Virus record (IMG/VR): IMGVR_UViG_3300037264_007739 | Location: 1 to 64,000 of that record | Length of the DNA stretch: 64,000 nucleotides | Reading direction: 5' to 3' (one strand) | DNA from: a virus | Shown here: positions 18,533-61,233 of the stretch, in pieces | Layout of the letters: every line of letters begins with the position of its first letter | How positions within the stretch are numbered: position 1 is the first letter of the stretch | Made by a program: the position numbers and the translations under genes | Notes under the pieces: generated by a model | Seen by the model: the letters and a program-made list of their open reading frames with translations, nothing else | Database searches by the model: none | What the model was told of the DNA's origin: nothing

Positions 18533-19044
18533 TGCCGAGTCTCGAGTACATCGCAGTACCGGTCGAACCGAGTGAGGCGCTCTTTTTTGAGCGCGCACGC
18601 GGGACGATTACGTTCTGTGCGCCAGCTCCGCCGCCGCCTCCACCGATAAGCGTGTCTCCATCTATCGTGCAGCGCGACGGCGGCTACAGTGTCACGTTGG
18701 TTGGCGGCGTTTTGATCCCGGACGGCACTTATATCGTGCATGTCGGTCCGCTTGGAACTGAGGAAGACCCAGACTGCTATTCGGGTATTGAAGGCTCCGG
18801 ATCGGTTACTCCTTTTGAAGACGGTTCGGCCTCTATTGTGATCCCACCGCTTCCGGTCGGTGGCCCGTATGCGTTCACGTTGCGCCGTCTCACGGGTTCA
18901 GGTGATCCACTCATAATGACCGACCCCATTCTAACGGTGACTCCACAACATTTCCGCAGCGGCACATTTCGGCTAAGACGCTATCTGATGCCGTGGATGC
19001 GGATTGGTAACCGTTCGCTGGATCAAGTGAGGTTCCCGCAATAG
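18532..19044 (+). CDS. Ig-like (IPT/TIG-like) domain virion protein
   Basis: ISVSPSIV..DGGYSVTLVG...VIPP...GPY resembles the IPT/TIG pattern. Confidence 0.5.
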   Translation: MPSLEYIAVPVEPSEALFFERARGTITFCAPAPPPPPPISVSPSIVQRDGGYSVTLVGGVLIPDGTYIVHVGPLGTEEDPDCYSGIEGSGSVTPFEDGSASIVIPPLPVGGPYAFTLRRLTGSGDPLIMTDPILTVTPQHFRSGTFRLRRYLMPWMRIGNRSLDQVRFPQ

Positions 19045-19054
19045 GGAAGAATAT

Positions 19055-22000
19055 ATGACGGTCGGACTGCTCGAAGGACTGACGTCCTCCATCGGCGATG
19101 AGCTCACAGCGCTTTCGGGCTTCCGTTCGACGCGCACGACCGCGCTTGTCGACGTTGAAGATCGAATCCAGACCGACGTCAACAACGCCTCGAGTGTTGA
19201 TAGCGGCCTCAACATCACGTTCTCGGCGCCGATCCCCAACACCGGCCCGATCGTGATCGGTCTTCGCTTTCGGATGCTCTCTGATCCGGGGACAAACATT
19301 CTTCAGTCCGGCGTCGCGACAGTATCGGGTCTCTCGTCGGGGACGCGCGTCGTTCTTTCGGCAGGATCCTTCGCAGCAAGCGTTCAGCCCGGGCGGAAAT
19401 TCAAGATCACAACCGGCCCGCTTTCAGGAAAGACTGCGTTCATCAACAAGCGCGTCTCGAGCGTTGAGATCTTACTCGACGGTACTGGTCTCGGTAGCGA
19501 CTTCACGAACGAGAGTTGGGACGTGCTCTTCGATCTTGTGAACCGACACGCCAGGATCGCAGGCATCACATTCGCCGGCCCGAACATCACCGGGCTCGCA
19601 CTCACGCATCCACTCGGCGCCAACTTCACGACCCAGAGTTGGGAGGTCGTGCAAGACGCACCGACGACGATCCCTGTCGAAAATACACTCGATTGGGAGG
19701 CTGTCAGCGAGGCGTTTGTCGGGCCGACGCGCTACCGCTACGACTCGAAGACGCTCACGACACTCGACAGCCTTCGTGCTTCGCGCCATCTCGGTCGTGA
19801 CGGGCGCATCGTCGCGATCGCCGGAATCCTTATTGCTGACGGCGCGAAGCTCTCCGTCGATGACGGTCAGGGTGACGTCAAGACATTCGAGTTCCAAAAG
19901 ACTGCGACCGCATTTCCGGACATTCAGAACATCACGCTCAACATCACTAACCTGATGACCGCGACACAGGTTCGCGACGTGATCATCGACGGCATCGTGA
20001 ACCTCGCAGACATGAACCTTCGTGCGTTCCCGGGAACGACAACGGATGCCGTCGAGCTTCGCCACGCCATTCCTGGTGGAACAGGACGCATCGATGTCAC
20101 GGATACGGTCACGGATGCGGGTTTCCTCACCGAAGGCCCGCGTGGCATCGAAGCCGTTGTTCAGCCGCTCGAAGAGGTTATCGACTTTAGCCTAAAGCCG
20201 AGCGGCATCGACCAATATAGAAACTCGTTCATCGTCGAGCGCGCTGTCGGTGAAGAGCTCTCGACGCTCGGCCGAAACATCGGCGTCAGCCGCCCGTCGG
20301 CGCTTCAAAACGACGAGATCTTCCGGCGACTCATCGCCGCGATGGCATACGCGCCGCGAGGTACGATTCTGGCGATCGAGCTCGTGCTCGATGCGATTCT
20401 CGGGCCAGGAAACTGGGAACTTTTCGAGGATCTGACGCTCGGAAGCCTCAACCATCCGTGTGAGATCTTCTTTCGCCGGCGCGACGACAACGAGCTCAAG
20501 AGCGTTGGAAAGGCATTCCTCGACGGTGACGAGAACCGCGCGATGGCGACGGCGTCGACGCTCACGCTCGCTGCTGATCCAACACCTGGACGTGTCGAGG
20601 GCCTGCGTCTTGCTCCAGAAGGTGTCGAACGGCTCATCGCCTTCGGCTCGACGGCGACAGTCGTGCCAGGCGCAAATCAGACGGCAGCCGTCACGGGGCC
20701 TGCGGCGAGCTTTCCGACGGCTGTGAAGCCTGGTGACATCTTCTACGTCACCACCGGGCCGTACAAGGGAACGCAGGGCACGATCCAGGCACGCAACAGC
20801 GATTTCTCTCTCACACTCGGACCTCTTCGCGGATCCGAGAACATCGTCGTCACGCAGTCATTCACCGAGGTCGGATGGAAGATCGTCCGCCGACGGTCGA
20901 ACTTTCGTCACTATCGCCCGAGCGAGGAGTTCTACATCGAGCGATCTGGCGGGCCGTCGACGCAGATCTGGACCGCGCAGGGCACGCTCGCAGCAAGCGA
21001 GGCGACATACGTCACCTTCGTGACGGACACGCAGGGGCAATATCTTCAGATCGTGGACTCTGGTGGTGGTGCTGTTGCAGCCGACACGATGTTCTACCAG
21101 CACCTCGCGCGCATCGATCGCACGTCGCTCGCGTCGTTCGCCGTGCACATGAACATCGGTGCGTCCGCGGTCTTCCCAGTGGCGGGGGACAACAGCAAGC
21201 AAGCCTCCTTTCAGATCGAGGACGGCGTAAAGCTCATCATGGTCGGCATGACCTGGGACGGCGTTGGTGATGATCGAGACATCGGCTTCATCGATTCGAC
21301 AGGCGCGTACATCGGCACGCCGGTGAACGTCGACATCGCCCCTGTCTCGAACGCAACGGTGTGGAAGAACATCGAGATCGTGAAGGTTGCCGACAAGCAG
21401 GCGCTCCTACTCATTGGCGGGCACGTCGTCCAAGCTGTGCCGTACGCCTCACTCTCGGCGTCAGCGAATCGAAGGATCGCCTTCGGGGCGCAGTCGACGG
21501 GGAACTTCGGAGTGATGGTCCTGAAGGAAGTCGACTGGGGCATTATCACGCCGCGCGACTTCTGGAACGAGCGGCCCGCGAATTTCCAAACGACGGCGGC
21601 AGAGCACGTCACCGATGTGGCAGGCACATTCCGGTCGAGTGACGATGATCTACCGGTCAAGAAGCGCGTGCGCCTCTTCGATTGGAGCGCGCTCAATTCT
21701 GGCGGCGGCAACGTAAAAGGCGAATGGGAGATCGACACGTACGTGAGCGATGGCGACGTCAGCGTCACTGGGCCTAGGCTGAAGCGCGGATTATTCACGT
21801 TCGAGGACCCGTTCCGGTTCACGGGGCGCGACAACGAGAACGCGTTCACATGGCCGGATGCTCGTGGGCATTCCGTTCAGATTCTCACCGGGCCGAATGC
21901 CGGTATCTATCCAATCTCGAAGATCATCGACCCAGTAACGGGACGAGATGTCCAGGAGCCGCCGACCAACCTGAATGGGAACCCAAAGTGGCTTCGTGCT

Positions 22001-22891
22001 ATTTCAACTGATCCGACCGACGGAACGTACGGCGTTATCGCTGTGCCGTTTCCGATACCGCCAGGATTTTTGCAACCATTGAACCCGGCCATCCGCGTCT
22101 GGGGCAAGGTCGGCGGTGTTTACGTATTCGACAACTTCACTTTGATTCCTGGTTTTGGGTTGCTCTCCATATCGCCCACGTTCGACGCGGCGTCCATCGT
22201 CGCGATCGAATGCGTCGACGTCGTAAATCTTGGTGCGGGTGATGGCGTTGGCGGCAATAGAATGCCGACCTTCAGAGGCGACGTCATCGTCTTTGAGGGG
22301 CCGGAGAACACGGCGGTCACCGACCCGAACAACCGAACCGAGGTCATCCGCCTCCCCGCGGGTCAGCGGTCCTATGGAGGCCGAGAGCTCACGCGGCTGC
22401 ATGCTGCGGGCTGGACGAGCTCGAACGCGCAGCAGCTCATCCAGCGATCGCATATCGTCGTCCTCGACACCGCAGCCGGCGTCCCCGCACGCCCAAATGG
22501 CTTCGCGTTCACGGACGTTGAGGCGGATTGGCGTATCGTGCCGAACTTCCCCGTCGACCCGTCAGTGAAGGGCGAGATCGTTGACGCCGGGACCGTTGCG
22601 GGTGCAACGCTCACGCTCAGGAACAATTTGCCAATCACGCCAGTGGGCGAGTATCCGATCATGGCTGCGGCGCGAAGCCTGGTATTGTCGGCGCAGCTCC
22701 TCGACGAGAAAGAATCGAACACGTTGTTGTCTCTGCCGTCTAACTATTCGCACTATCCGTTCTACTTGGCGGACAACTTCGGTTTTGTGCGGACTGTTGT
22801 TGATCTCGTGACAGCAGCTGGTGTCATCCCCGATTTCGATCGACTATTCCGCGATGCGTCAGGCCCTCACCTGATCGGCAGAAATACGTAG
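19055..22891 (+). CDS. large baseplate wedge / fibre-attachment protein (gpI-like core plus repeats), 1278 aa
   Basis: GEELSTLGRNIGVSRP...NDEIFRRLI...RGT wedge motif; C-terminal AAGV. Confidence 0.7.
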   Translation: MTVGLLEGLTSSIGDELTALSGFRSTRTTALVDVEDRIQTDVNNASSVDSGLNITFSAPIPNTGPIVIGLRFRMLSDPGTNILQSGVATVSGLSSGTRVVLSAGSFAASVQPGRKFKITTGPLSGKTAFINKRVSSVEILLDGTGLGSDFTNESWDVLFDLVNRHARIAGITFAGPNITGLALTHPLGANFTTQSWEVVQDAPTTIPVENTLDWEAVSEAFVGPTRYRYDSKTLTTLDSLRASRHLGRDGRIVAIAGILIADGAKLSVDDGQGDVKTFEFQKTATAFPDIQNITLNITNLMTATQVRDVIIDGIVNLADMNLRAFPGTTTDAVELRHAIPGGTGRIDVTDTVTDAGFLTEGPRGIEAVVQPLEEVIDFSLKPSGIDQYRNSFIVERAVGEELSTLGRNIGVSRPSALQNDEIFRRLIAAMAYAPRGTILAIELVLDAILGPGNWELFEDLTLGSLNHPCEIFFRRRDDNELKSVGKAFLDGDENRAMATASTLTLAADPTPGRVEGLRLAPEGVERLIAFGSTATVVPGANQTAAVTGPAASFPTAVKPGDIFYVTTGPYKGTQGTIQARNSDFSLTLGPLRGSENIVVTQSFTEVGWKIVRRRSNFRHYRPSEEFYIERSGGPSTQIWTAQGTLAASEATYVTFVTDTQGQYLQIVDSGGGAVAADTMFYQHLARIDRTSLASFAVHMNIGASAVFPVAGDNSKQASFQIEDGVKLIMVGMTWDGVGDDRDIGFIDSTGAYIGTPVNVDIAPVSNATVWKNIEIVKVADKQALLLIGGHVVQAVPYASLSASANRRIAFGAQSTGNFGVMVLKEVDWGIITPRDFWNERPANFQTTAAEHVTDVAGTFRSSDDDLPVKKRVRLFDWSALNSGGGNVKGEWEIDTYVSDGDVSVTGPRLKRGLFTFEDPFRFTGRDNENAFTWPDARGHSVQILTGPNAGIYPISKIIDPVTGRDVQEPPTNLNGNPKWLRAISTDPTDGTYGVIAVPFPIPPGFLQPLNPAIRVWGKVGGVYVFDNFTLIPGFGLLSISPTFDAASIVAIECVDVVNLGAGDGVGGNRMPTFRGDVIVFEGPENTAVTDPNNRTEVIRLPAGQRSYGGRELTRLHAAGWTSSNAQQLIQRSHIVVLDTAAGVPARPNGFAFTDVEADWRIVPNFPVDPSVKGEIVDAGTVAGATLTLRNNLPITPVGEYPIMAAARSLVLSAQLLDEKESNTLLSLPSNYSHYPFYLADNFGFVRTVVDLVTAAGVIPDFDRLFRDASGPHLIGRNT

Positions 22892-22901
22892 GAGAGCAAT
22901 C

Positions 22902-24779
22902 ATGTCAGGCAAGCAGCTACTCAGAACGGAAGTTGGCGAACGCGTCGATCACCCTGACTTTGAGTTCCTCTCCGAGATCAGTCACCGAGACGCCGTCAAT
23001 CAGATTATGGAGGCGCTCGTCGTCGGCACCGACGACGTCCTCGACACCGCAGCGAATACGCATCCGAAGTTCTTCGTGCTCGGTGGCTTTCGCATGTCCG
23101 TGCCGAGCGGCGCCAATGTTCTTGTCGAAAAGGACGTGCCGAGCGGAACGTCGATTCAGCCTGGTGCTGCGATCATGGCCTTCCGTGATCGTGGCGCAGC
23201 CAAGTTCGGCGTCATCCTCTCTGGTGGTGACGCCTCTCGATTAATCGACATCACGACCTTCCCCAATGGGCTGTACGGAATCTTCGTCCGATTCGCGTTC
23301 AAGGACGATGTCGTGCAGAGCCGCCTCGTCTGGAACCCAATCACGCCGACGCCTGTCGAGACGCCACGTAGCATGCCGACGCGCAAGAGCGAGAACTGGG
23401 AGATCGCGATCGAGCTCGTGCAGCCTGGTCCAGAGTGGATGCGCATCGGCTCCGTTGACCGCGCGACGATGGTCATCACCGATGAGCGGAATTTTCTCTT
23501 CGAGGGGCGCGCGGCGAACAGCTACGCCGCAGTCGATGAGGAATGGGGCACAGCAGTCGATCGCAACAGTGACCGCGCCCTCCACGGCGCGTCCTCGATT
23601 TACAAAGCCATCCGCGGGCTCCAGCGCCAGGTGCAAGACATCATCGGCGAGACCAGCCCGAATGGGTGGTGGCGGTCGATCGAGAGAAGCCTGAAGGTCG
23701 CTCTTGTGCGGGATGGTTCGCGCACGATGCAAGGTAACTTACATCCAGACGCGACGAACACGCGAAATCTCGGTGGCGCGCTCGCGGCTTGGGCGCAGAT
23801 CTTCGTTGGCAAAATTTCACTTGGTTCGTTTTTGCTTGGTTCGGACGCCGATGCCGATCAACCGCGTGTCAGTGCCGCTTATTCTGGTGCGGCCGGGCGC
23901 GAAAAAACGCTCATGCTTTACTCAGATCGAGACGCGTCTTCAGCGTGGCCGCTCGCGATTTATCGCGCCCAAGTCGGTCTCTTCGGAGGGGCTGACGCGA
24001 TTCAATTCGTTTGGAACGCGCTCTACGCCAACGCGACCAATCTTTGGACACAGACGAACGCCGGCAATAGTCCATTGCTCATTGAGTTCGGCCGTCACGG
24101 ATTCGCAGTTTTCCGCAAGGACCCAGAGGTCGGCGCCGGTGGAACATTCACCGATATAGTTGGTCCTGCTGGATGGTCTGAGCGCGGAGCCCGATTTTTG
24201 TTCAACGGCACAACGGCGTTTTTCCACGAGCTCATAGCACCTGTACTGCGCGCCAGGGCCGGTGTCATCCACGTCGACGATGACGAGGACGACGCGCCGG
24301 CAGATCGATCTACGATAAATCTAAACGGACTTGCAGCATCGACGGCGAAGCGACACGCAATTCTCTCGAACTATGTTGCCAACACGCTCGAGCTACGCGG
24401 CGGGCTCAACGGTGATCAGGCGATCAAGATGTCCGGCCTAGGCGTCCAGCTCGCGCGAAATTGCATCGGCCAGAATGGCTTGTACGAAGAGTTCGGCCTC
24501 ATCTCCGGAACGGTGACAGCGGGGTCTATCCCCGCTGGTGGCTTCACGACTATCACGCTGACGACGGCGACCTCGCCGGCGATCAACATCGGTGATCACC
24601 TAGTTTACATTCTGCCGGATACTCAGACGGCCTTCGACAGCCTCTTCAATGTGCAAGCCAGCGTGAGTGGGGTGAACACGATCACGGTGTATCTTGGGAA
24701 CTTCTCAAGCGTGGCCAAGCCCGCCGCCAATCGAATATACAATTTTGACGTTCTCGTTCTTCGACGGGTGACAGGGTGA
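22902..24779 (+). CDS. tail fibre / receptor-binding protein
   Basis: DGSRTMQGNL.P..T..RNLG.....W fibre motif; last structural gene. Confidence 0.7.
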   Translation: MSGKQLLRTEVGERVDHPDFEFLSEISHRDAVNQIMEALVVGTDDVLDTAANTHPKFFVLGGFRMSVPSGANVLVEKDVPSGTSIQPGAAIMAFRDRGAAKFGVILSGGDASRLIDITTFPNGLYGIFVRFAFKDDVVQSRLVWNPITPTPVETPRSMPTRKSENWEIAIELVQPGPEWMRIGSVDRATMVITDERNFLFEGRAANSYAAVDEEWGTAVDRNSDRALHGASSIYKAIRGLQRQVQDIIGETSPNGWWRSIERSLKVALVRDGSRTMQGNLHPDATNTRNLGGALAAWAQIFVGKISLGSFLLGSDADADQPRVSAAYSGAAGREKTLMLYSDRDASSAWPLAIYRAQVGLFGGADAIQFVWNALYANATNLWTQTNAGNSPLLIEFGRHGFAVFRKDPEVGAGGTFTDIVGPAGWSERGARFLFNGTTAFFHELIAPVLRARAGVIHVDDDEDDAPADRSTINLNGLAASTAKRHAILSNYVANTLELRGGLNGDQAIKMSGLGVQLARNCIGQNGLYEEFGLISGTVTAGSIPAGGFTTITLTTATSPAINIGDHLVYILPDTQTAFDSLFNVQASVSGVNTITVYLGNFSSVAKPAANRIYNFDVLVLRRVTG

Positions 24780-24821
24780 CCATGTAACATGATGAGATGG
24801 ATGACATAAAGGATATAATTT

Positions 24822-25184
24822 ATGGAAGGCTTCGATTTCGGTCCATTGGTAGAGCAGCTCGTCACATGGCAGAACGGGCTCATCGTCGTCGCGTGCGGCG
24901 CGGCGATGGAGGCGTTCAAGCGCGGTCCTGGGACGCGCAAGATCGCCGAGAGCCGATGGGGCCAGGTGCTCGCGTACTACGCGCCTGTCGCGTGGGCGTG
25001 GCTCGCGCTCTTTCTACCGATCGGGCTCGCGCGTGACGGCGCCGGCGTCGGCGAAAGACTCTTGCTCGGCGTCGTGCTCGGGACAGTCACCGACTCGGCC
25101 TACGATTGGACGGTGAAGGCGCTCAGGAAGTTCCTCGGCGCGGGCGTGGCTGAGAAGTCGTCGTCGCTGTCGCTGCCGAAGTGA
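24822..25184 (+). CDS. holin
   Basis: 120 aa with about three hydrophobic segments; first gene of the lysis cluster. Confidence 0.65.
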   Translation: MEGFDFGPLVEQLVTWQNGLIVVACGAAMEAFKRGPGTRKIAESRWGQVLAYYAPVAWAWLALFLPIGLARDGAGVGERLLLGVVLGTVTDSAYDWTVKALRKFLGAGVAEKSSSLSLPK

Positions 25185-25187
25185 GCC

Positions 25188-25541
25188 ATGGTCGTCCTAT
25201 CGTTTCTGAAAAGGTACACATGGCTCGTCCTCTTTGCGATTGCAGTCGTGCTCGCAACGATCATCGCTGTCCTGTCGCGACGGAAACCAACTGACGGCCT
25301 CACAAGAGGGGCGGTGATCAAGGCCGAGCTCGCCGGCATTCGCGCCGAGGGCGAGCTCGAACGCCGGCTCGCCGCGAAGGGGGCGGAGGCCGCGAAGGCA
25401 GAGGTGGAGCGCGCCTATGAATCCGAGAAGCACGCGATGGCCGAGAGCGAGCGGAAGGAAGCCGAGGAGCTCAAGGCCGACCCGGTCAAACTCGCTGGTT
25501 TTCTTGCTAGGGCTGGCGCTCGCCGTCGCCATCGCTCCTGA
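25188..25541 (+). CDS. i-spanin (Rz-like)
   Basis: N-terminal TM helix followed by a charged coiled coil. Confidence 0.55.
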   Translation: MVVLSFLKRYTWLVLFAIAVVLATIIAVLSRRKPTDGLTRGAVIKAELAGIRAEGELERRLAAKGAEAAKAEVERAYESEKHAMAESERKEAEELKADPVKLAGFLARAGARRRHRS

Positions 25542-25971
25542 GCTCGCGCTCGCGGAATGCGACCCCAACGACCCGACGGCGTGCTCGACGCCGATCAACA
25601 AGGGCCAGGCGGCGCCGTACAGCGGCCAGCTCCTCACACCTGTCCTTGCGATCAGGCTCGGTCAGGACGCCGAGCACTGCGACGACCGCCTCGATCTCGA
25701 GCTCGCTCATACGAGCTCGCTGGCGCGCATCAGGCTCGACTACGAGAAAGCGCTCCGGGTGGTCGACGTTCGGCAGCTCACCCGCGAGCGTGACGCCTAC
25801 GAACGCGACAGGGACTTCTGGAAGGGCGAGGCGGGCCGCAAGGTCGAGCCACCTCATTGGACAGCTAGCCCGTACTTCGTCGTCCCTGTGGCCGTGCTCG
25901 CGACGCTGGGCGCGGTGTGGCTCGGCATCGAGGTCGTGAAGGCACGAGAGAAAGTTACGACCGTGCCTTGA
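25417..25971 (+). CDS. spanin-like envelope protein with signal peptide and C-terminal TM
   Basis: Overlaps the Rz-like gene in another frame; hydrophobic signal ending ALAEC; C-terminal TM; GGAG SD. Confidence 0.5.
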   Translation: MNPRSTRWPRASGRKPRSSRPTRSNSLVFLLGLALAVAIAPELALAECDPNDPTACSTPINKGQAAPYSGQLLTPVLAIRLGQDAEHCDDRLDLELAHTSSLARIRLDYEKALRVVDVRQLTRERDAYERDRDFWKGEAGRKVEPPHWTASPYFVVPVAVLATLGAVWLGIEVVKAREKVTTVP

Positions 25972-25996
25972 CACCGTGCTCGAGCAGCGTTATGAC
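25968..25996 (+). promoter_or_regulatory. sigma70-like promoter TTGACA-N17-TATGAC
   Basis: Perfect -35 at 25968-25973; -10 at 25991-25996, identical to the recombinase promoter -10. Confidence 0.7.
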
Positions 25997-26000
25997 CCCG

Positions 26001-26294
26001 CCCGCACGTAGGAACACCCAACGTGATTCCGTAGTGGCCGAAAGGCCCTCGCAGCCTGGCTGATCACTGGGCGAAGCGGTAAGCGGCGTCTGAACTGAGG
26101 AAGCGGCGCACGGCGCACGAACTCGGAAGGTGTTGGGCGCGGGACGGCGCTCGGGGCAACGTGGCTCGTCGCAGCGCAAGCTGCCAAACGAGCAGGCGAG
26201 CTCCAAGACAAGGATGTGCCGCGCGGCGACCTTGCCTCGACCCAACCTTTGAAAGCCTCGGCCCCGAAAGGGTGTCCGGGGCTTTTGATTTTTT
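26001..26294 (+). ncRNA. unassigned structured non-coding RNA, ~290 nt
   Basis: Own promoter and terminator, no credible ORF, GNRA hairpins, long-range stems whose G-U pairs work only on the + strand. Confidence 0.65.
26252..26294 (+). terminator. intrinsic terminator, possibly bidirectional
   Basis: AAAGCCTCGG...CCC GAAA GGG...CCGGGGCTTT followed by TGATTTTTT. Confidence 0.75.
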
Positions 26295-26307
26295 GGGACT
26301 CTCAGTT

Positions 26308-26946
26308 CTACCCAGCCCTCGCGGCAGCGAGAATCCGGTCCCACGCGAACGCTGGCCCGGGGTCGGTCTTGCGCGTCGGGTCCACGTTCTCGTGGCCGGT
26401 GAATCGGCCGTCGGGCGGGCCGGACACTACACCGGCGTCTCGGAGCTGCGGGAACACGGCGACGAGCGTCTTCGTGAGCGCCTCGAGCGTCACGAGCTGT
26501 TCCTCGGCGTACGCGTCCCATTGATCGCCGTTCGGCATGACGATCGCGTTCCCCTTGTGCTCGACGCCCTTGTACGTGATGAGCTTGTCGCCCTTGAGCG
26601 CGAGCTTGCCCCAGTTCTCGATCTCGATGCCGATCGATCGGTTGTTCACCTGGCCCTTCGTGCGCCACTTCGAGGTCTGCCCGCCCGCGTGCCACGTGCG
26701 ATCGGTGAGCGGCGCGAGCTGCCACGGCTCGCCGTTCTTCTTGATGATGAAGTGCGCCGACGCCGAGGAATCCTTCGAGGTGAGCCATCGGAGCGAGCCA
26801 TCGAAGCCGCCTGCGGTGTAGTGGTAGACGACGAGCTCGATGGGCTGAATGCGGCTGGCCTGAAACGCCTTCGAGTAACGGTTCGGTGTCAGGCGTCGAA
26901 ACGCCTCGGGCACCACCCATCCATCATTTGTCGGCGCGATGATCAC
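26308..26946 (-). CDS. endolysin, N-acetylmuramoyl-L-alanine amidase (Amidase_2/AmpD-like)
   Basis: VYHYTAG, SAHFII, WHAG, NNRSIGIEIEN, GHENVDPTRKTDPG. Confidence 0.92.
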   Translation of the reverse strand: MIIAPTNDGWVVPEAFRRLTPNRYSKAFQASRIQPIELVVYHYTAGGFDGSLRWLTSKDSSASAHFIIKKNGEPWQLAPLTDRTWHAGGQTSKWRTKGQVNNRSIGIEIENWGKLALKGDKLITYKGVEHKGNAIVMPNGDQWDAYAEEQLVTLEALTKTLVAVFPQLRDAGVVSGPPDGRFTGHENVDPTRKTDPGPAFAWDRILAAARAG

Positions 26947-27779
26947 GACGTCTCTTCGTCCTCGTCGTCCTCGAAGACCGCTCTGTCATCTTCGATGGGC
27001 TCCTCGCCGTCAATGGGCTCCGCACCCGTCCCGATAGAAAGGACGCGCTCCGAGGCTGGTGCTGGCGGGGTGACATATCGCCCTTCGATTATGACTGGTG
27101 CCGGCCCTGGTGTGCCTGGCGGTGTGACCGGCGCCGGCGCGCCCAGGGTCGGGACCGTCGAGTCGAGCTGTGAGCCTTCGATGGGCATACGCAGTGCGCC
27201 GGCGATCGTCAGACGCATGCTGTCGCGCCGGTGGCGAAGGATCTCCTTGGCAGCAAGCTGGAGCTCCTCGGATGAGGCACCGACATCCTCGGGGCGGAGC
27301 TGCTTTTGCTCGCCCTGGCCGGGCATGAGCTCAGCACCGACCGCCGTGGCGATACGGTCCCTGTGCTCTGTGGCCTCGAGCAGGATCTTGGCAACGCCCT
27401 CCCAGCTCTTGGGCATCACCATCTCGTCGGTGAGCTTCTCGAGCGCGAGCGACCGAATCGTCTCGAGATCGGCGAGGTCGCGCTGGCGAAGGCGACAGAG
27501 CTCGGTCCCGAGGCGCTCCTTGGCCCGGCTCTTCCACGCCGAGAAGAAGGCCGATCGCCGCTCGACCCATTGATCCTCTTTGGACCAGCGCTCGAGCGTC
27601 TTCTGGGTGACCTTCGCGAAGCGCGGGTCCTTCGACATCTCCTCGAGCGTCGGCGTCTCGTGGGTCATGTAGTAGATGCCGGCCTCGGCCCGCAGGCGTG
27701 GGTCGCCGCGAGCAGGTCCCTCGAGCTTAGTCGTCGGGGCCAGCGGCAAGGAGGTCTCGGTAGCGTTCGGCGCGCTCAT
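26943..27779 (-). CDS. terminase small subunit-like HTH protein
   Basis: N-terminal HTH TLERWSKEDQW followed by a helical region and an acidic tail. Confidence 0.5.
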   Translation of the reverse strand: MSAPNATETSLPLAPTTKLEGPARGDPRLRAEAGIYYMTHETPTLEEMSKDPRFAKVTQKTLERWSKEDQWVERRSAFFSAWKSRAKERLGTELCRLRQRDLADLETIRSLALEKLTDEMVMPKSWEGVAKILLEATEHRDRIATAVGAELMPGQGEQKQLRPEDVGASSEELQLAAKEILRHRRDSMRLTIAGALRMPIEGSQLDSTVPTLGAPAPVTPPGTPGPAPVIIEGRYVTPPAPASERVLSIGTGAEPIDGEEPIEDDRAVFEDDEDEETS

Positions 27780-27972
27780 CCTCAGTCAACGATAGCAAAG
27801 TACGAGCTGCCTGGACATCCACTTTGCGGGCGTAGAAAACCAGGCGCCCTTTGCACGGTACGAGCTGCTTGGGCGCCCCGATCTCGGAGAGCGCCCGAAG
27901 CATGTTCATGTCATCTACAATGTCGCACTCGCTCGGGTCGAGCTCGTGCGGCCCGATCCGGATGCGCCGCAT
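27727..27972 (-). CDS. hypothetical protein (MRRIRIGPHEL...)
   Basis: GAAGGGAG SD; overlaps the next gene by ~50 nt. Confidence 0.45.
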   Translation of the reverse strand: MRRIRIGPHELDPSECDIVDDMNMLRALSEIGAPKQLVPCKGRLVFYARKVDVQAARTLLSLTEDERAERYRDLLAAGPDD

Positions 27973-27985
27973 GACATCTCCCTTC

Positions 27986-28225
27986 TTACATGAAGCCTCG
28001 GTGCTTCCTCGTTCGCCCAAGGACTGCACCGTCAACCTTCTGGCCATTCCCCATGATCGCGCCGACCTTCCATTGCGCGTCGGCGCGCAAGACCTGACCG
28101 GAGGGAATTTCGACCCGGGCGTGCTCGACGCCGCACGCGCACGTCTGCTGGTCGCGCTCGGCCATCGAGACGAGGCGGTTCTCCTCGAGCCCGCAGTTCG
28201 GGCACCTGTACTCGTACATGGGCAT
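27986..28225 (-). CDS. FmdB-family zinc-ribbon protein
   Basis: MPMYEYRCPNCG...CACG. Confidence 0.8.
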   Translation of the reverse strand: MPMYEYRCPNCGLEENRLVSMAERDQQTCACGVEHARVEIPSGQVLRADAQWKVGAIMGNGQKVDGAVLGRTRKHRGFM

Positions 28226-28647
28226 CAGGTTCCTCCAACGTTCTTGAACACGACGTTCCTCTTCGGTGTGTAAAGCACGGGCGCGCCGTAGAGCAACTGC
28301 GCCCAGCGAAGGCTCGGGTCGACGATCCCTTCCTCTTCGAGGACCAGGATCCCCATCGTCATCGCCGCTTTCTGTTGCTCCTTCGTCATCACGGTGTCGT
28401 AGCCGAGCGCCTTGATCCCGCGGTCGAGCGCCTTCATCCGGTACTCGAGGTTCTCGCGAGCGCGCTGCTCAGCGACGCGCTTCTCGATGTCGATTACCTC
28501 GCAGTCGGCGCAGCGTGCGCACCGATTGTTGTACTCGTCCGGGGTGATCGCCCAGACTCGCTTGCACGAGCCGCACCTGAACGATGCGCCCTTGCCGGGC
28601 GTCCATTCGTAGAGGCCGTTCGCCGCTCGTTCGCTTGAATGGCTCAT
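28225..28647 (-). CDS. zinc-finger hypothetical protein
   Basis: CGSC...CARCADC; GAGG SD before MSHSS. Confidence 0.6.
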   Translation of the reverse strand: MSHSSERAANGLYEWTPGKGASFRCGSCKRVWAITPDEYNNRCARCADCEVIDIEKRVAEQRARENLEYRMKALDRGIKALGYDTVMTKEQQKAAMTMGILVLEEEGIVDPSLRWAQLLYGAPVLYTPKRNVVFKNVGGT

Positions 28648-28925
28648 CGACACCTCTTGATGTCCTCGAGCTCCTGCGCGTTCAAAAGGAGCGGCGGGTC
28701 CATTCGGATCTTGTGGTTCAAGATCTGCTGCTTCATGGCTTCGAGCTGTTCGAGCTTGCGATCGTCGCGCGTGCATTCGACGAGCGTGCGCGCCGCCTTT
28801 TTGTCTTCCGCGCTCATCTTGGCGAGCGGCTCTTCGATGCCGAGCTCTTCGCCGGCCCACGCCAGCGCAGCGGTGTCGCCGAGCTCGAAGAGCCGAGAAC
28901 GAAGGTCGATGTTCATGTCGCTCAC
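28644..28925 (-). CDS. hypothetical protein
   Basis: Coupled 4-nt overlaps at both ends; typical codon usage. Confidence 0.55.
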   Translation of the reverse strand: MSDMNIDLRSRLFELGDTAALAWAGEELGIEEPLAKMSAEDKKAARTLVECTRDDRKLEQLEAMKQQILNHKIRMDPPLLLNAQELEDIKRCR

Positions 28926-29332
28926 TTGAACGGATTCCAGCTCTTGTCCTTCTCGAGGATCTGGTTGATGAGCCATACGCATGCCTCCTTCATCTCGTCG
29001 ACCTCGAGCAGGTCGCTCTTGCTGCGCACGATCACTTCGCCGGCGTTCGAGCAGAGCTCGCAGACGCGGCCCTTCTGGTGAACCTTCAGTTTTGGACACG
29101 GTGCGTAGTCGACGGGGACGCCGACGCGGTGCTGCCTGTACGCCTCGATTACCTGCATCAGGATGTCGACACCGTCGGGCCACGGCAGCGCGTCGACGAG
29201 GTCTTCGGACTTCAGCATGACCCATTGGCGCTTGCTCTCGATGAGCCAGCGTTTCAGGTGGCCTGGATCCTTGATCGCGGTCGCCAGGTGGTAGGGCGTA
29301 GGTTGCGCGAGTGGTGCGTTCACCTCTGTCAC
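28922..29332 (-). CDS. hypothetical protein with Cys/His motif
   Basis: GGAGG SD; CP...H....CELC. Confidence 0.6.
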   Translation of the reverse strand: MTEVNAPLAQPTPYHLATAIKDPGHLKRWLIESKRQWVMLKSEDLVDALPWPDGVDILMQVIEAYRQHRVGVPVDYAPCPKLKVHQKGRVCELCSNAGEVIVRSKSDLLEVDEMKEACVWLINQILEKDKSWNPFK

Positions 29333-29333
29333 G

Positions 29334-29660
29334 TCAGCCTCCGATCGACGCGACTGTCGAGCCGACGAGCGTCTTTTGCACGCGTGTCACGAACGCGTTG
29401 TACGCTGCGATCTCGATCAGGCCCACGCGCATAAGCGTGGAGACGACGCCGAGCGCATTGCCGTGGTGGATGAGATACTTCGTCTCGCGGCGGCGCAGCT
29501 CGCGGACGGTGTTCTTCGCCATCGCGTCGAGTGGTGCGTCGCAGGCACGACGCGCGTTTTCGCACGCAGCGACCATCTCTTCAGCCCACCGGAGCGCCTG
29601 CTCGGGCGTCTCGATGGGCGGTGGAATCTTGAGAAGTTTTTCGGGCGTCATCCAAGGCAA
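29334..29660 (-). CDS. hypothetical protein
   Basis: Operon spacing and codon usage; start uncertain. Confidence 0.55.
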   Translation of the reverse strand: MPWMTPEKLLKIPPPIETPEQALRWAEEMVAACENARRACDAPLDAMAKNTVRELRRRETKYLIHHGNALGVVSTLMRVGLIEIAAYNAFVTRVQKTLVGSTVASIGG

Positions 29661-29722
29661 GTCTTGCCTGACGGCGTCACACGACGCAACCCGATCGATG
29701 TTGTTAGGCCGTAGCAGTGAGA

Positions 29723-30124
29723 TCAGGAACCGTAGGTCTCGACCATGTCGGCGTACGCGCCGAGGTCGACGGGCGTGGTGCCGACGGCTGACGAGACGAG
29801 CTCGATGGTGTCGCCTGACCCGACGGACACCGGCGGATTCACACCGCCCGACTTCACCACGCCGTTCGCGTCCGTGCCGAACACGAATGAGACCGACGCC
29901 TGCGAAACGCCGTTCTTATGTACCTGCACGGTGGTCGTGCCGGCCGCTTGCGATCCGAGCTTGGCGGTCAGGCCACGCAGGAGCCCAGGGCGACGGATGA
30001 GGCGCCCAGCGAGCGTCGCGGCTGCGGCTGGGACCGCGGCGAAGCCATTGAGCTCGATCGGAACTTCGGCGCTGCCCTCACGAGCGGCGCGGTCGGACGG
30101 GGATGGATTGGTCGTGGCTGCCAT
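29723..30124 (-). CDS. beta-sandwich protein resembling virion decoration proteins
   Basis: GAGGAGG SD; TTTVQVHKNG...SVGSGDTIEL pattern. Confidence 0.55.
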   Translation of the reverse strand: MAATTNPSPSDRAAREGSAEVPIELNGFAAVPAAAATLAGRLIRRPGLLRGLTAKLGSQAAGTTTVQVHKNGVSQASVSFVFGTDANGVVKSGGVNPPVSVGSGDTIELVSSAVGTTPVDLGAYADMVETYGS

Positions 30125-30161
30125 TGCGATTCCTCCTCGCGGGTGAAGACGCTCTTTCCTA

Positions 30162-30353
30162 CTAGAAGTCTTCCTCGGCGTCGAGCCCTGATGTGACAGG
30201 GACGTGCGCGAGCGGAGGTGGCCGGCGTTCGTCGCGGATCCAGAAGCGCCAGAAGACGCGGCGGTAGTTCGTGATGTAGTCGTAGTTGAACGGCGACCAA
30301 TGGAGTGGACCGAGCTTGAAGGTGAAGACGGAACGAGGCGGACGACGAGACAT
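30162..30353 (-). CDS. hypothetical protein, 63 aa
   Basis: Downstream of a TTGACA-N17-TATCAG promoter. Confidence 0.45.
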   Translation of the reverse strand: MSRRPPRSVFTFKLGPLHWSPFNYDYITNYRRVFWRFWIRDERRPPPLAHVPVTSGLDAEEDF

Positions 30354-30362
30354 GGGGGCCGC

Positions 30363-30391
30363 CTGATAGAGCACGTCTCGATCGCTGTCAA
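30363..30391 (-). promoter_or_regulatory. sigma70-like promoter TTGACA-N17-TATCAG
   Basis: Perfect -35 and 17-nt spacer; ATG 9 nt after the -10. Confidence 0.55.
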
Positions 30392-30414
30392 TGTGACATA
30401 TCAAGACCGTCGCC

Positions 30415-30445
30415 TGGCGGCCTGGAGGGGGTCTCCAGGCCGCCA
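30415..30445. terminator. perfect 13-bp hairpin
   Basis: TGGCGGCCTGGAG / CTCCAGGCCGCCA, intergenic; weak U tract. Confidence 0.5.
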
Positions 30446-30552
30446 AGCGGCAGAAGGAATGACCGTGGCGATCGGGGAGGTGTCTCCGTGCCGTGTGGCC
30501 GTCTCCATGGTGCCATTTGCGGCCTCGGAGTCAAGTGGCACGCACGCCTGCG

Positions 30553-30759
30553 CTATTCTTCGCCGTCGACGGTGAACGCATCACTGAGCGCTTCAACATC
30601 TGGCTCGATATTGGCGACGTCTGCGTCGGGGATAAAGATGTGGACTTTGATTGTATCGCCGAGCTTCGCGATAAGCTCGGCGAAGTCATCGTCAGTGAGC
30701 AGCTCGCCAGATTCTTCTTCGATCCACATCGAGCCTGAGCGCCTGAACGTCGTCAGCAT
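30553..30759 (-). CDS. acidic hypothetical protein, 68 aa
   Basis: AGGAGGG SD. Confidence 0.6.
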   Translation of the reverse strand: MLTTFRRSGSMWIEEESGELLTDDDFAELIAKLGDTIKVHIFIPDADVANIEPDVEALSDAFTVDGEE

Positions 30760-30767
30760 GTTCCCTC

Positions 30768-31535
30768 CTACGCCGTGGCCGCCGCTCGTGTCGAGGACTC
30801 GGCGCGCTGAGCGGCGACGAGGTGAAAGACCGCTGGCAGGTGCCATCGACCCGGCACGCCGACGCCCTGCGGGGCGCCCTTCCGGTTCTTCGGGCGTGCA
30901 GGCACGCCCTCGGCGTTCAGCCGATCAACGATCGCGCGGAAGCTGAGCCCGCTGCCACGCAGCTCGATGATGTAGCGGATGACCACCTGCTCGCGCTCGA
31001 GCTCGATCAAGCGTACGCCGTCGGCCGCGAGCACGAAGCCGTAGGGGACTTGTCCTGGGTTCTCGCCTCGGCGTCGCTTGGCGCGGAGCGCGGCACTGGT
31101 GCGCGCCTTGATGAGCGCCCGCTCGTAGGCGGCGAACTGGTTCATGATGCCCTTGATGAGCTCGCCTTCGGCGCCCTCGGCCTGGCCCACACCGTCGGCC
31201 GAAACGAGCTTCGCCCCGAGGCGCCGGATCTCGGCGTCGAGGAGCCCGGCGAGGGTCGCGTCGCGCGCGAGGCGGTCGAGCTTTGCCACGACGAGCGCTG
31301 ACGCCTTCGTTCGGCGGACGGCCTCGAGCGCCGCCCCGAGGCCGGGACGCTTGTCGAGCGGCGCGGCGCCGGAGACGCCCTGATCGGCGTGGACCTCGGC
31401 AACGGTCTTTCCAGACCGCGCCGCCCATTCCTCGATTGCGGCGCGCTGGGCTTCAGGGCCGAGATGTTGCTCTTCGGTCGAGACACGGAGGTAAGCGATG
31501 ACGGTGGCGTTCGTGCGGAGCTTGGTTCGACGCAT
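30768..31535 (-). CDS. serine recombinase (resolvase domain plus short recombinase domain)
   Basis: YLRVSTEEQ, D.GVSG....RPGL, KLDRLARD, ER..I..RT..AL, PYGF, GLSFRAI..RLN. Confidence 0.92.
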   Translation of the reverse strand: MRRTKLRTNATVIAYLRVSTEEQHLGPEAQRAAIEEWAARSGKTVAEVHADQGVSGAAPLDKRPGLGAALEAVRRTKASALVVAKLDRLARDATLAGLLDAEIRRLGAKLVSADGVGQAEGAEGELIKGIMNQFAAYERALIKARTSAALRAKRRRGENPGQVPYGFVLAADGVRLIELEREQVVIRYIIELRGSGLSFRAIVDRLNAEGVPARPKNRKGAPQGVGVPGRWHLPAVFHLVAAQRAESSTRAAATA

Positions 31536-31537
31536 GC

Positions 31538-31570
31538 TTATGTCATAACAACTTATGACATAAACGTCAA
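31538..31570 (-). promoter_or_regulatory. promoter TTGACG-N17-TATGAC overlaid by double operator TTATGTCATAA-CAAC-TTATGACATAA
   Basis: Perfect inverted repeat 31538-31563; ATG 6 nt after the -10. Confidence 0.75.
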
Positions 31571-55132: not shown

Positions 55133-55398
55133 AGGCGCTACCACAAGCCCCCCAGTTCACCACTTTTTTGAAGATAGACTCTAAAACTTGACAGGTAAAG
55201 GGCGATTTACTTGGGGGGTCGATCTATATATATCCTTTACGTGTGCGGTCTATACTAGTCTTTTATCTAAAAGATCTAGTAGTAGTAGTAGTAGTAGCGC
55301 GTATGTACCTGATCTACCTTTCCTTTTTCTATTACCAGAAAGGGGAAACCCCTATGGTAGCGTTTCAGTAGCCGAGGTAGCAAACCGACTGATATCTA
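55133..55398. other. AT-rich non-coding region, candidate replication origin
   Basis: Sharp drop in GC, (TAG)7, repeated GATCTA-like motifs; directly after the DUF927 gene. Confidence 0.6.
55277..55297 (+). repeat. (TAG)7 trinucleotide repeat
   Basis: Read directly from the sequence. Confidence 0.95.
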
Positions 55399-55427
55399 TT
55401 GACGATGTCGTCGACGTTATGTATTAC
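55399..55427 (+). promoter_or_regulatory. promoter TTGACG-N17-TATTAC
   Basis: 17-nt spacer; ATG at 55433 is 5 nt after the -10. Confidence 0.65.
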
Positions 55428-55432
55428 GTGTC

Positions 55433-61060: not shown

Positions 61061-61233
61061 CTCCCGCACTCGAGCGCGGCTCCGTCCGCGATCAACTTCA
61101 AAGCGATGCGGCGCCGCTCGACGTGCTCGTCCTCGGTTTCCTCCAGGTCTCGAACGAGGAGCGACGAAAGACCGACAGCGCCGCCGCAGTAGCAGCACCA
61201 CACCTTTGGCAACGCCACCTCTTCGACGTTCAT
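61051..61233 (-). CDS. small Zn-ribbon protein
   Basis: CCYCG...CGRC; AGGA SD. Confidence 0.55.
   Translation of the reverse strand: MNVEEVALPKVWCCYCGGAVGLSSLLVRDLEETEDEHVERRRIALKLIADGAALECGRCR

What the first reader, a model, noticed from the sequence alone, without database searches (positions are those of the whole stretch)
25968..26294. Stand-alone ~290-nt structured RNA with its own promoter and terminator inside the lysis cassette
Seen: the 336-nt gap between the convergent spanin-like and amidase genes is the longest ORF-free stretch in a densely packed genome. It opens with TTGACA-N17-TATGAC (25968-25996) and closes with a terminator (26252-26294). It contains the GNRA hairpins GGCC-GAAA-GGCC (26036-26047), GCAGC-GCAA-GCTGC (26171-26184) and CCC-GAAA-GGG. 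It also has the long-range stems CCCAAC..TTCCG (26017-26031) with CGGAA..GTTGGG (26124-26137), GCTCGT with ACGAGC (26164-26193), and TCGGGGCAA (26151-26159) with TTGCCTCGA (26232-26240). The G-U pairs work only on the + strand. I could not match it to tRNA, tmRNA, RNase P, SRP, 6S or hammerhead consensus by eye. Inference: a novel phage ncRNA, for example a scaffold, decoy, anti-defence RNA, ribozyme or lysis regulator.
Basis: partly seen in the sequence, partly recalled or inferred. Interest (0 to 1): 0.85.

Follow-up and report, generated by a model that had tools for sequence, protein, structure and literature searches.

The report
ORF-less promoter-terminator unit between lysis genes
A 336-base stretch with no gene, lying between two phage lysis genes, looks like a small stand-alone unit for a non-coding RNA, but nothing shows that this RNA is specially folded or conserved, so it remains a modest, unproven candidate.

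Summary
The gap 25972-26307 has no frame with coding bias. It matches no protein family and no Rfam family.

Two signals hold up. The terminator at 26249-26294 is the best intrinsic terminator in the window. TTGACA-N17-TATGAC is one of four copies of TTGACR-N17-TATNAS in the phage. All four lie in non-coding or probably non-coding DNA, and the other three sit 5-9 nt before an ATG.

The "multi-domain structured RNA" reading does not hold up. The whole-RNA fold has z = -1.0 and ranks 81 of 637 windows. The 5' half has z = +0.46. Two of the three long-range stems have pair probability 0-0.08.

None of 3 independent syntenic relatives has this sequence. One has no gap, one has an unrelated small gene there, and one has the two genes co-directional and overlapping. 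The gap is also not the longest non-coding stretch.

Verdict: a plausible lineage-specific, ORF-less "moron" that makes a ~290-nt RNA. Its function is unknown and no transcript is shown. Interest is modest. The scan noted this stretch twice more on the same genome and on no other DNA.

The parts
25417..25971 (+). Upstream gene p184, spanin-like: last gene of the + strand structural/lysis block
   Evidence: ORF. No Pfam or PHROG family. Homologues in L002/L003, L004 and L047 share a conserved Cys after a hydrophobic N-terminal stretch and a conserved C-terminal hydrophobic segment. Reading this as a unimolecular spanin architecture is my inference.
25968..25996 (+). Promoter-like motif TTGACA-N17-TATGAC; its -35 element contains the TGA stop of p184
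   Evidence: Read. It is one of 3 sites matching at least 10 of 12 consensus positions in the window (1.4 +/- 1.2 in simulations). It is one of 4 matches to TTGACR-N17-TATNAS (0.02 expected, 0 of 100 shuffles reach 4; that pattern was written after seeing the sites). The tool's own scan did not list it because the -10 lacks the final T.
26003..26294 (+). Candidate ~290-nt non-coding RNA; the start is inferred from the -10 element and was not observed
   Evidence: No coding bias in any frame. No PHROG hit in six frames read through stops (best E 0.012). No Rfam hit. Fold z -1.0.
26036..26047 (+). Small hairpin GGCC-GAAA-GGCC
   Evidence: Read; pair probability 0.90-0.92.
26153..26204 (+). 52-nt hairpin capped by GCAA, holding GCTCGT/ACGAGC and GCAGC/GCTGC
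   Evidence: -29.5 kcal/mol, z -3.6, 0 of 200 shuffles as good (the stretch was chosen post hoc). Pair probability 0.85-0.93. The 100-nt window around it ranks only 179 of 2557.
26249..26294 (+). Intrinsic terminator: bulged G+C-rich hairpin with a GAAA loop, then UUUUGAUUUUUU. It ends 13 nt before the amidase stop codon.
   Evidence: -24.9 kcal/mol, z -4.0; best of 10 candidates in the window. It is weaker on the - strand (-17.7 kcal/mol; only UUU follows).
26308..26946 (-). Convergent Amidase_2 endolysin gene: last gene of the - strand block 26308-30391
   Evidence: PF01510, E 1.9e-25. PHROG amidase/endolysin families. Strand blocks.
30363..30391 (-). Second copy of the promoter-like motif (TTGACA-N17-TATCAG), at the head of the - strand block that ends with the amidase. 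An ATG lies 9 nt after the -10 element.
31542..31570 (-). Third copy (TTGACG-N17-TATGAC), 6 nt before the ATG of the serine-recombinase-like ORF 30768-31535
55399..55427 (+). Fourth copy (TTGACG-N17-TATTAC), 5 nt before an ATG at 55433, at the edge of an A+T-rich non-coding stretch

Best explanation
The gap is a lineage-specific, ORF-less insertion at the exact point where the + strand structural/lysis block (3889-25971) meets a - strand block (26308-30391).

Its left edge is a host-type promoter, TTGACA-N17-TATGAC, of the same kind that precedes three genes elsewhere in this phage. Its right edge is the strongest intrinsic terminator of the window, oriented for the + strand. So it has the anatomy of a phage 'moron' (promoter, payload, terminator) whose payload is not a protein but an RNA of about 290 nt.

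That RNA would run from about 26003 to 26294. It would carry one stable 52-nt hairpin and the terminator hairpin with a U-tail. The same stretch is also the untranslated tail of the lysis operon, because nothing terminates + strand transcription before 26294.

Shown: the sequence signals, the absence of coding signal, and the absence of the element from relatives.

Inferred: that the promoter fires, that the RNA accumulates, and that it acts as a small regulatory RNA (in trans on host or phage messages, or against - strand read-through from the weakly terminated amidase gene). It is probably not a multi-domain folded RNA.
For: Promoter:
- At 9 or more of 12 consensus positions there are 13 sites in the window. 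Of these, 4 lie in the 9.6% of DNA left uncalled (binomial P about 0.03 by my arithmetic). A fifth, at 30391, overlaps only a doubtful TTG-start extension.
- The four sites with a TTGAC core all have a 17-nt spacer and a TATNA(C/G) -10 element. There are 4 matches against 0.02 expected, the backwards control gives 0, and there are no further copies in the 73-kb record.
- The a priori pattern TTGACA-N17-TA gives 2 matches against 0.31 expected; 4 of 100 shuffles reach 2.
- The other three copies stand 5-9 nt before an ATG, as promoters of leaderless or nearly leaderless genes would.
- A -10 element ending in C fits the Caulobacter RpoD consensus TTGaCgS / GCtANAWC (PMC8144410, passages seen).
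- An alphaproteobacterial host is hinted. 34 of 39 GenBank phage records with a related amidase are phages of Alphaproteobacteria, and most of the 36 genome loci are titled as Alphaproteobacteria.

Terminator.

No ORF.

Insertion-like: in L002/L003 (one phage, 100% identical over 2327 nt) the two genes' stops overlap with no gap. In L004 the slot holds a 97-aa gene of phrog_13182 (E 2e-22) on the other strand. In L047 the two genes are co-directional and overlap by 4 nt.

Strand asymmetry: 3 GNRA hairpins on + against 0 on -, and the terminator is stronger on +.
Against: - No start, end or level of any transcript was seen.
- The four-copy pattern was written after seeing the sites, so its 0.02 expectation is inflated. 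The a priori statistics are only P about 0.03-0.04.
- Three of the six letters of the -35 element come free from the stop codon TGA.
- The -10 element lacks the T at its last position that the standard sigma-70 consensus requires.
- Unlike the other three copies, this one has no ATG after it. It may therefore be the relic of a lost gene.
- The fold is no better than shuffles or than the phage's coding DNA.
- No relative or other sequence shares it: phages, 47 metagenome loci, two motif scans of viral contigs, and 401 genomes of one class with only 20-38-nt matches in 14 of them. Neither conservation nor covariation therefore supports a function.
- G+C of the gap is 64% against about 62% for the window, so there is no foreign composition.
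- No complementarity longer than 14 nt to the rest of the window.
Confidence: 0.45

Rival explanations
1. Plain convergence-zone spacer. The 336 nt are only the untranslated tail of the lysis operon. They end in a terminator that keeps + strand polymerase out of the convergent endolysin gene. The promoter match is chance and no discrete RNA is made.
For: Two transcription blocks converge here. Phages with convergent units are described with a terminator between them: tf (PMC3517423, passages) and LUZ7 (PMC9163698, passages). No terminator lies between p184 and 26249, so read-through is expected. In an RNA library, one contig with 0 differences runs from inside p184 across its stop and the whole promoter motif to 26008 (X2 record 12, 25757-26008); DNA carry-over is not excluded. 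Fold energy is ordinary. About 1.4 sites matching at least 10 of 12 positions are expected by chance in the window.
Against: Relatives manage with no spacer and no terminator at all (L002/L003), so 290 nt of filler is unexplained in a genome that is about 90% coding. The promoter-like motif shares its spacing and its unusual -10 element with three others that sit before genes.
Confidence: 0.35
2. Relic of a lost moron gene. A small, leaderless protein gene with its own promoter and terminator once sat here and has decayed beyond recognition. Promoter and terminator survive without function.
For: The same slot holds a real small gene in L004 (phrog_13182). The other three promoter copies all drive an ATG 5-9 nt downstream, and in the alignment ACG-TAG stands here where the 30391 copy has its ATG.
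Against: No frame keeps coding bias. There is no PHROG or Pfam similarity in any frame, even read through stops. tblastn of the L004 protein against the window gives nothing in the gap, and tblastx against relatives gives only E >= 0.015 noise.
Confidence: 0.12
3. One reading: a multi-domain, specifically folded RNA (scaffold, decoy, ribozyme, anti-defence RNA or switch).
For: Three GNRA-capped hairpins on the + strand against 0.52 expected, and none on the - strand. Folded alone, the 5' domain uses the proposed CCCAAC/GTTGGG + TTCCG/CGGAA closing stem as its minimum-energy structure.
Against: z -1.0 for the whole RNA and +0.46 for the 5' domain. Rank 81 of 637 windows. Two of the three long-range stems have probability 0-0.08 in the full-length ensemble. 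No Rfam family matches even at E <= 10, apart from three chance hits at E 2-8.3. There are no homologues, so no covariation.
Confidence: 0.05
4. An unrecognised small protein gene, for example the 40-aa ORF 26130-26252 (+) or the 73-aa ORF 25990-26211 (-).
For: ORFs of 31-102 aa exist in the gap.
Against: All have codon-bias scores at or below about zero. No family hit better than E 0.07. Their composition is rich in Arg, Pro and Ala, typical of off-frame G+C-rich DNA. The slot is not conserved in relatives.
Confidence: 0.03

Closest known systems
Phage morons: a promoter, a payload gene and a terminator inserted between two genes that are adjacent in related phages
   Same: It is present here and absent from relatives at the same junction. 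It is bounded by a promoter-like motif and a strong terminator.
   Different: The payload has no ORF. Its G+C does not differ from the phage's.
Intrinsic or bidirectional terminators between convergent phage transcription units: phage tf (PMC3517423) and LUZ7 (PMC9163698)
   Same: A hairpin terminator sits between a convergent gene pair at the meeting point of two blocks (papers: passages).
   Different: Here the terminator is strongly asymmetric: good on the + strand, poor on the - strand. It also stands about 280 nt after the last + strand gene, behind a promoter-like motif.
Intergenic small RNAs of Pseudomonas phage LUZ7: sRNA1-3, under 250 nt, with their own start site and terminators (PMC9163698)
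   Same: A short ORF-less unit in a phage intergenic region with a promoter and terminator (passages).
   Different: Those were seen as transcripts. This one is predicted from sequence only, and no sequence relation was tested or is expected.
PAK_P4as15, an antisense RNA associated with the endolysin gene of phage PAK_P4 (review PMC12197685, passages)
   Same: A phage RNA next to or opposite an endolysin gene, proposed to time lysis.
   Different: If termination at 26294 is efficient, this RNA ends 13 nt short of the amidase stop codon. It would therefore overlap only a read-through 3' tail of the amidase message, not its coding or start region.
Lambda 6S RNA: the short pR'-tR' transcript just upstream of the lysis genes (recalled, not read here)
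   Same: A short promoter-to-terminator transcript beside a lysis cassette.
   Different: In lambda it is the leader of the late operon and is read through by Q antitermination. Here no + strand gene follows the terminator.

Membership tests
Any Rfam 15 RNA family | Covariance-model score at or above the family's gathering threshold | tested here: not met
   0 matches in the whole window at gathering thresholds. In 25850-26400 at E <= 10 there are only three chance hits: CRISPR-DR46 at 19.8 bits against a threshold of 50, rnk_pseudo at 16 against 55, and mir-276 at 11.9 against 62. The first two lie on the terminator hairpin. ARAGORN finds no tRNA or tmRNA.
Intrinsic (Rho-independent) terminator | Stable G+C-rich hairpin directly followed by a U-run | tested here: met
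   -24.9 kcal/mol, z -4.0, followed by UUUUGAUUUUUU. Best of 10 candidates in the window.
Bidirectional terminator | Hairpin flanked by an A-tract upstream and a U-tract downstream, so that both strands terminate | tested here: inconclusive
   On the - strand the hairpin folds at -17.7 kcal/mol, z -1.9, and is followed only by UUUCAAAGG. Activity was not measured.
Sigma-70-type promoter | -35 and -10 hexamers at 16-18 nt spacing, with A at -10 position 2 and T at position 6 | tested here: not met
   6 of 6 in the -35 element, 17-nt spacer, 4 of 6 in the -10 element (TATGAC), last T missing. The tool's scan does not list it.
Caulobacter-type RpoD promoter (TTGaCgS / GCtANAWC; PMC8144410, passages) | Both motifs present with a short spacing (the paper scanned 10-19 bp), and the -10 element ends in C | tested here: inconclusive
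   TTGACAC matches 6 of 7 positions. GTTATGAC matches 6 of 8, counting N. They are 14 nt apart (my reading). The host is unknown; Alphaproteobacteria are only hinted.
Phage moron | Present between genes that are adjacent in relatives | tested here: met
   None of 3 independent syntenic relatives has the sequence, and in L002/L003 the two genes abut.
Phage moron | Payload is a protein-coding gene | tested here: not met
   No frame with coding bias or family similarity.
Phage moron | Base composition differs from the surrounding genome | tested here: not met
   Gap G+C is 64% (215 of 336), against 59-65% in 2-kb windows.
Structured non-coding RNA (generic) | Fold more stable than shuffled or background sequence | tested here: not met
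   z -1.00. Rank 81 of 637. Sub-domains at z +0.46 and -1.13.
Structured non-coding RNA (generic) | Covariation that supports the helices in homologues | not testable with these tools
   No homologue was found.
Cis-antisense RNA to the endolysin gene (PAK_P4as15-like) | Overlaps the endolysin coding or start region on the opposite strand | tested here: not met
   The terminator ends at 26294 and the amidase ORF, stop included, starts at 26308. Overlap would need read-through.
Trans-acting small RNA | Observed discrete transcript | tested here: inconclusive
   Only assembled contigs of two RNA libraries were available. Contigs cannot show starts, ends, strand or level.

The most novel reading that the evidence does not exclude
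The gap encodes a specifically folded, lineage-restricted phage RNA with its own promoter and terminator. Examples would be a decoy or anti-defence RNA, or a two-state switch that couples the end of the late operon to endolysin expression. Its fold would simply not show up in energy statistics, and its relatives would sit in contigs I could not fetch.
Probability: 0.06. Interest if true: 0.75.

Novelty: new member of a known kind. Interest (0 to 1): 0.3.

Why it matters
If the promoter fires, this is a clean natural case of a "moron" whose cargo is an RNA rather than a protein. It sits exactly where the late and the opposing transcription units of an uncultured phage collide, next to the endolysin gene. 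The phage probably infects an alphaproteobacterium. Such units are rarely annotated and could time lysis or act on the host.

The more useful by-product is the four-copy promoter family TTGACR-N17-TATNAS. Three of its copies appear to drive leaderless genes. This gives a first handle on how the phage is transcribed and hints at its host.

As it stands the finding is a prediction from one sequence, without conservation or a transcript. It does not open a long-standing question.

Tried and rejected
Known RNA families: Rfam at gathering and at permissive thresholds, and ARAGORN. Nothing found.

Homologues of the gap:
- blastn against 50,697 phage records: none.
- blastn with word size 7 against 47 metagenome loci: only 13-32-nt chance matches.
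- tblastx against the four syntenic loci: best E 0.015 in a tiny database.
- Two hairpin-motif scans of viral contigs: 0 hits each.
- 401 genomes of the class of one genome locus: 14 with 20-38-nt matches scattered over different parts of the query, none longer, and 0 of 2 in the pre-search.
- The scan's own index: only this same stretch.

Relatives through neighbouring proteins:
- Single-protein scans of viral contigs with the amidase, the 625-aa protein and the 278-aa protein, and an alignment scan, found no relative.
- tblastn of p184 against phages found none.
- The genome-contig scan gave only amidases at 38% identity or less.
This is the main hole in the report.

Expression: only Logan contigs were available.
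- In the RNA library X2, contigs cover 28 of 30 bins of 22000-30000. The bin 26005-26271 has summed contig depth 1.43, against 9.51 and 3.51 in the two flanking bins.
- In X3, only 26357-26580 and 29355-29560 are covered.
- In the DNA run X1, the gap bin holds only the main contig's depth (18.6), whereas flanking bins hold extra depth from related strains.
- The joints 25640>26524 and 25835>26952 in X1 have unknown letters between their two sides and cannot be read as deletions.

Targets: complementarity of the candidate RNA to the rest of the window is at most 14 nt, E 0.057. The host is unknown, so host targets were not searched.

Repeats: two 24-nt units 27 nt apart at 71% identity (26073 and 26100), and several 8-11-nt repeats. 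I judged them chance. There are no terminal inverted repeats of a mobile element.

Decayed-gene test: six frames read through stops as X against PHROGs, best E 0.012. Gap ORFs against Pfam and PHROGs, best E 0.07.

I ran no further search on the gap ORFs, because the slot itself is absent from relatives. Supplementary files of the papers were not opened; those of PMC9163698 may hold terminator and sRNA coordinates relevant to the comparison.
Full report
**What the window is.** The window is the first 64 kb of a 73,097-bp IMG/VR virus record, estimated 45% complete, at about 59-65% G+C. A codon-bias gene caller trained on 21 long ORFs gives 71 genes and 9.6% uncalled DNA. Genes run on the + strand from 3889 to 25971 (16 genes) and on the - strand from 26308 to 30391 (7 genes). 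The finding therefore sits exactly where two transcription blocks converge.

- The last + strand gene (25417-25971, 184 aa) has no Pfam or PHROG family. Its homologues share a conserved Cys after a hydrophobic N-terminus and a conserved hydrophobic C-terminus, so I read it as spanin-like.
- The last - strand gene (26308-26946) is an Amidase_2 endolysin: PF01510 at E 1.9e-25, plus PHROG lysis families.

- The gap is non-coding. All ORFs that touch it score negative or about zero. None matches Pfam or PHROGs better than E 0.07. Six frames read through stops as X give nothing better than E 0.012.
- The gap is not the longest non-coding stretch. My caller leaves 1007, 522, 403 and 359 nt uncalled elsewhere. 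At least the 300-nt stretch 55133-55432 is a more striking non-coding region.

**Structure.**
- The whole candidate RNA folds at -131 kcal/mol against -125.8 +/- 5.2 for shuffles (z -1.00; 34 of 200 shuffles as good). The - strand has z -0.49.
- Against the phage's own sequence, corrected for G+C, window 25998-26297 ranks 81 of 637 on the + strand. Only the 100-nt window holding the terminator stands out, ranking 23 of 2557 on + and 21 of 2557 on -.
- Sub-domains: 26003-26140 has z +0.46, 26141-26245 has z -1.13, the hairpin 26150-26207 has z -3.6 and the terminator has z -4.0. The last two stretches were picked after seeing the fold, so their z-scores flatter them.
- In the ensemble of 26003-26294 the local hairpins are solid (0.85-0.93) and the terminator is near 1.0. 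The long-range pairings have probability 0.00 (CCCAAC/GTTGGG), 0.34-0.59 (TTCCG/CGGAA) and 0.06-0.08 (TCGGGGCAA/TTGCCTCGA).
- GNRA-capped hairpins are 3 on the + strand of the gap against 0.52 expected, and 0 on the - strand. This is a mild, post hoc hint of a + strand RNA. One of the three is the terminator loop.
- Rfam gives nothing, and there is no tRNA or tmRNA.
- Conclusion: there is one good internal hairpin and a terminator, and no evidence of a multi-domain fold.

**The terminator.** It spans 26249-26294: a bulged G+C-rich stem, a GAAA loop, then UUUUGAUUUUUU. It is the best of 10 hairpin-plus-U-run sites in 64 kb on both strands. It is clearly oriented: -24.9 kcal/mol on + against -17.7 kcal/mol on -, where only UUU follows. 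It ends 13 nt before the amidase stop. It therefore stops + strand transcription just short of the convergent endolysin gene, and gives the amidase message at best a weak terminator.

**The promoter.** This part changed my reading. By the standard consensus the site is 10 of 12 but lacks the last T of the -10 element, so the tool's scan omits it.

- A relaxed scan finds 3 sites matching at least 10 of 12 positions (1.4 +/- 1.2 simulated) and 13 sites matching at least 9 of 12.
- Of the 13, four lie in uncalled DNA (24792, 25968, 31542-31570, 55399-55427). A fifth (30363-30391) overlaps only a doubtful TTG-start extension of a low-scoring ORF.
- Four of these five share TTGAC(A/G), exactly 17 nt of spacer, and TAT-N-A-(C/G). 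That is 4 matches against 0.02 expected, with 0 of 100 shuffles reaching 4, the backwards control at 0, and no further copy in the 73-kb record. This pattern was written after seeing the sites. The honest a priori figures are 2 against 0.31 for TTGACA-N17-TA (4 of 100 shuffles reach 2), and 4 of 13 sites in 9.6% of the DNA (P about 0.03, my arithmetic).
- The three sister sites stand 9, 6 and 5 nt before an ATG: the head of the - strand block, a serine-recombinase-like gene, and a + strand gene at 55433. This is what promoters of leaderless messages look like.
- A -10 element ending in C is the Caulobacter RpoD consensus (TTGaCgS / GCtANAWC; PMC8144410, passages).
- The amidase's relatives point weakly to an alphaproteobacterial host: 34 of 39 phage records and most of 36 genome loci, all at 38% identity or less.
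- The copy at 25968 differs in one respect: no ATG or GTG follows at that distance. ACG-TAG stands where the 30391 copy has ATG.

**Relatives.**
- The amidase has relatives at 80% and 78% identity (P0002, P0003).
- An alignment-based scan of metagenome contigs gave 47 loci. Four of them carry both the amidase and the p184 homologue.
- L002 and L003 are the same phage, 100% identical over 2327 nt. This leaves three independent relatives.
- In L002/L003 (amidase 64% identical) the order is the same as here, but the two convergent genes end on overlapping stops: no gap and no terminator.
- In L004 (58%) the slot is about 295 nt and holds a 97-aa gene on the amidase strand that belongs to phrog_13182, E 2e-22.
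- In L047 the p184 homologue and the amidase are co-directional and overlap by 4 nt.
- None of the three has sequence like the gap. No other collection I could search has it either.
- The element is therefore an accessory insertion in a variable slot.

**Expression.** One DNA run (probably the source) and two RNA libraries of another study hold the stretch. Only assembled contigs were available. They can show neither starts, ends, strand nor level. What may be told: in RNA library X2 a 252-nt contig identical to the window runs from 25757 to 26008, across the p184 stop and the whole promoter motif. This fits read-through from the lysis genes, if it is RNA and not carried-over DNA. The remaining details are under Tried and rejected.

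**Reading.** The anatomy is that of a moron whose payload is RNA: promoter of the phage's own type, then about 290 nt without an ORF, then the strongest terminator. It is inserted between genes that abut in a relative.
- I put 0.45 on a discrete non-coding transcript from its own promoter, acting as a small regulatory RNA or against read-through from the poorly terminated amidase message.
- 0.35 on a mere spacer/3' tail with a chance promoter match.
- 0.12 on the relic of a lost leaderless gene.
- 0.03 on a small protein.

**Comparison with known systems.**
- Terminators between convergent phage units are described for tf and LUZ7 (PMC3517423 and PMC9163698, passages only).
- LUZ7 also has an intergenic cluster of sRNAs under 250 nt with a start site and terminators.
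- An endolysin-associated antisense RNA, PAK_P4as15, is listed in a review (PMC12197685, passages).
- The moron concept and lambda's 6S RNA are recalled, not read.
- Against each of these the present element is a new instance with a twist (an RNA payload and an asymmetric terminator), not a new kind.

**Verdict.** Novelty: new member of a known kind. Interest: 0.3.

Noticed in passing
window 30363-30391 (-), 31542-31570 (-), 55399-55427 (+), with 25968-25996 (+): A four-copy promoter-like family, TTGACR-N17-TATNAS. Three copies stand 5-9 nt before an ATG, which suggests leaderless or nearly leaderless messages and a Caulobacter-type -10 element ending in C/G.
   Followed up: partly
window 55120-55440: An A+T-rich non-coding stretch in a 62% G+C phage, with a (GTA)n-like run and AT repeats. 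It is the most stably folding 300-nt window on the + strand (z -3.75, rank 1 of 637). It is significant on both strands (z -3.08 and -3.17, 0 of 100 shuffles as good). It has no Rfam hit. It could be an origin, a regulatory region or an RNA.
   Followed up: partly
window 30376-30475: A very stable hairpin on both strands (z -4.1 on +, -4.7 on -), just upstream of the 30391 promoter-like site, in the divergent region between the - strand block and the small + strand ORF 30493-30738. It may be a terminator or an operator.
   Followed up: no
window 27076-27175 (+): The most stable 100-nt window of the whole scan on the + strand (z -4.98, rank 1 of 2557). It lies inside the 278-aa gene 26943-27779 (-). 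It also contains one of the 7 TTATGAC copies (1.83 expected).
   Followed up: no
window 61202-62208 and 18533-19054: Stretches of about 1 kb and about 520 nt in which my codon-bias caller accepts no gene. These are either atypical genes or further non-coding DNA. Both are longer than the reported gap.
   Followed up: partly
L004 5702-5995 (+): In a relative, the slot after the amidase holds a 97-aa gene of phrog_13182 (unknown function, E 2e-22). The junction is therefore a variable cargo site in this phage group.
   Followed up: yes
window 24792-24819 (+): ATGAGA-N16-TATAAT (10 of 12) in the 42-nt gap before the holin-like ORF 24822-25184. Its -10 element ends 2 nt before the listed ATG, so either the start lies further downstream or the match is chance.
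   Followed up: no
window 25930-25980 (+): A hairpin closing over the end of p184 and the -35 element (GTGAAGGCACG / CGTGCCTTGAC; -19.1 kcal/mol, z -3.6, 0 of 200 shuffles as good). No U-run follows it. The RNA-library contig X2 record 12 ends 36 nt after it.
   Followed up: no
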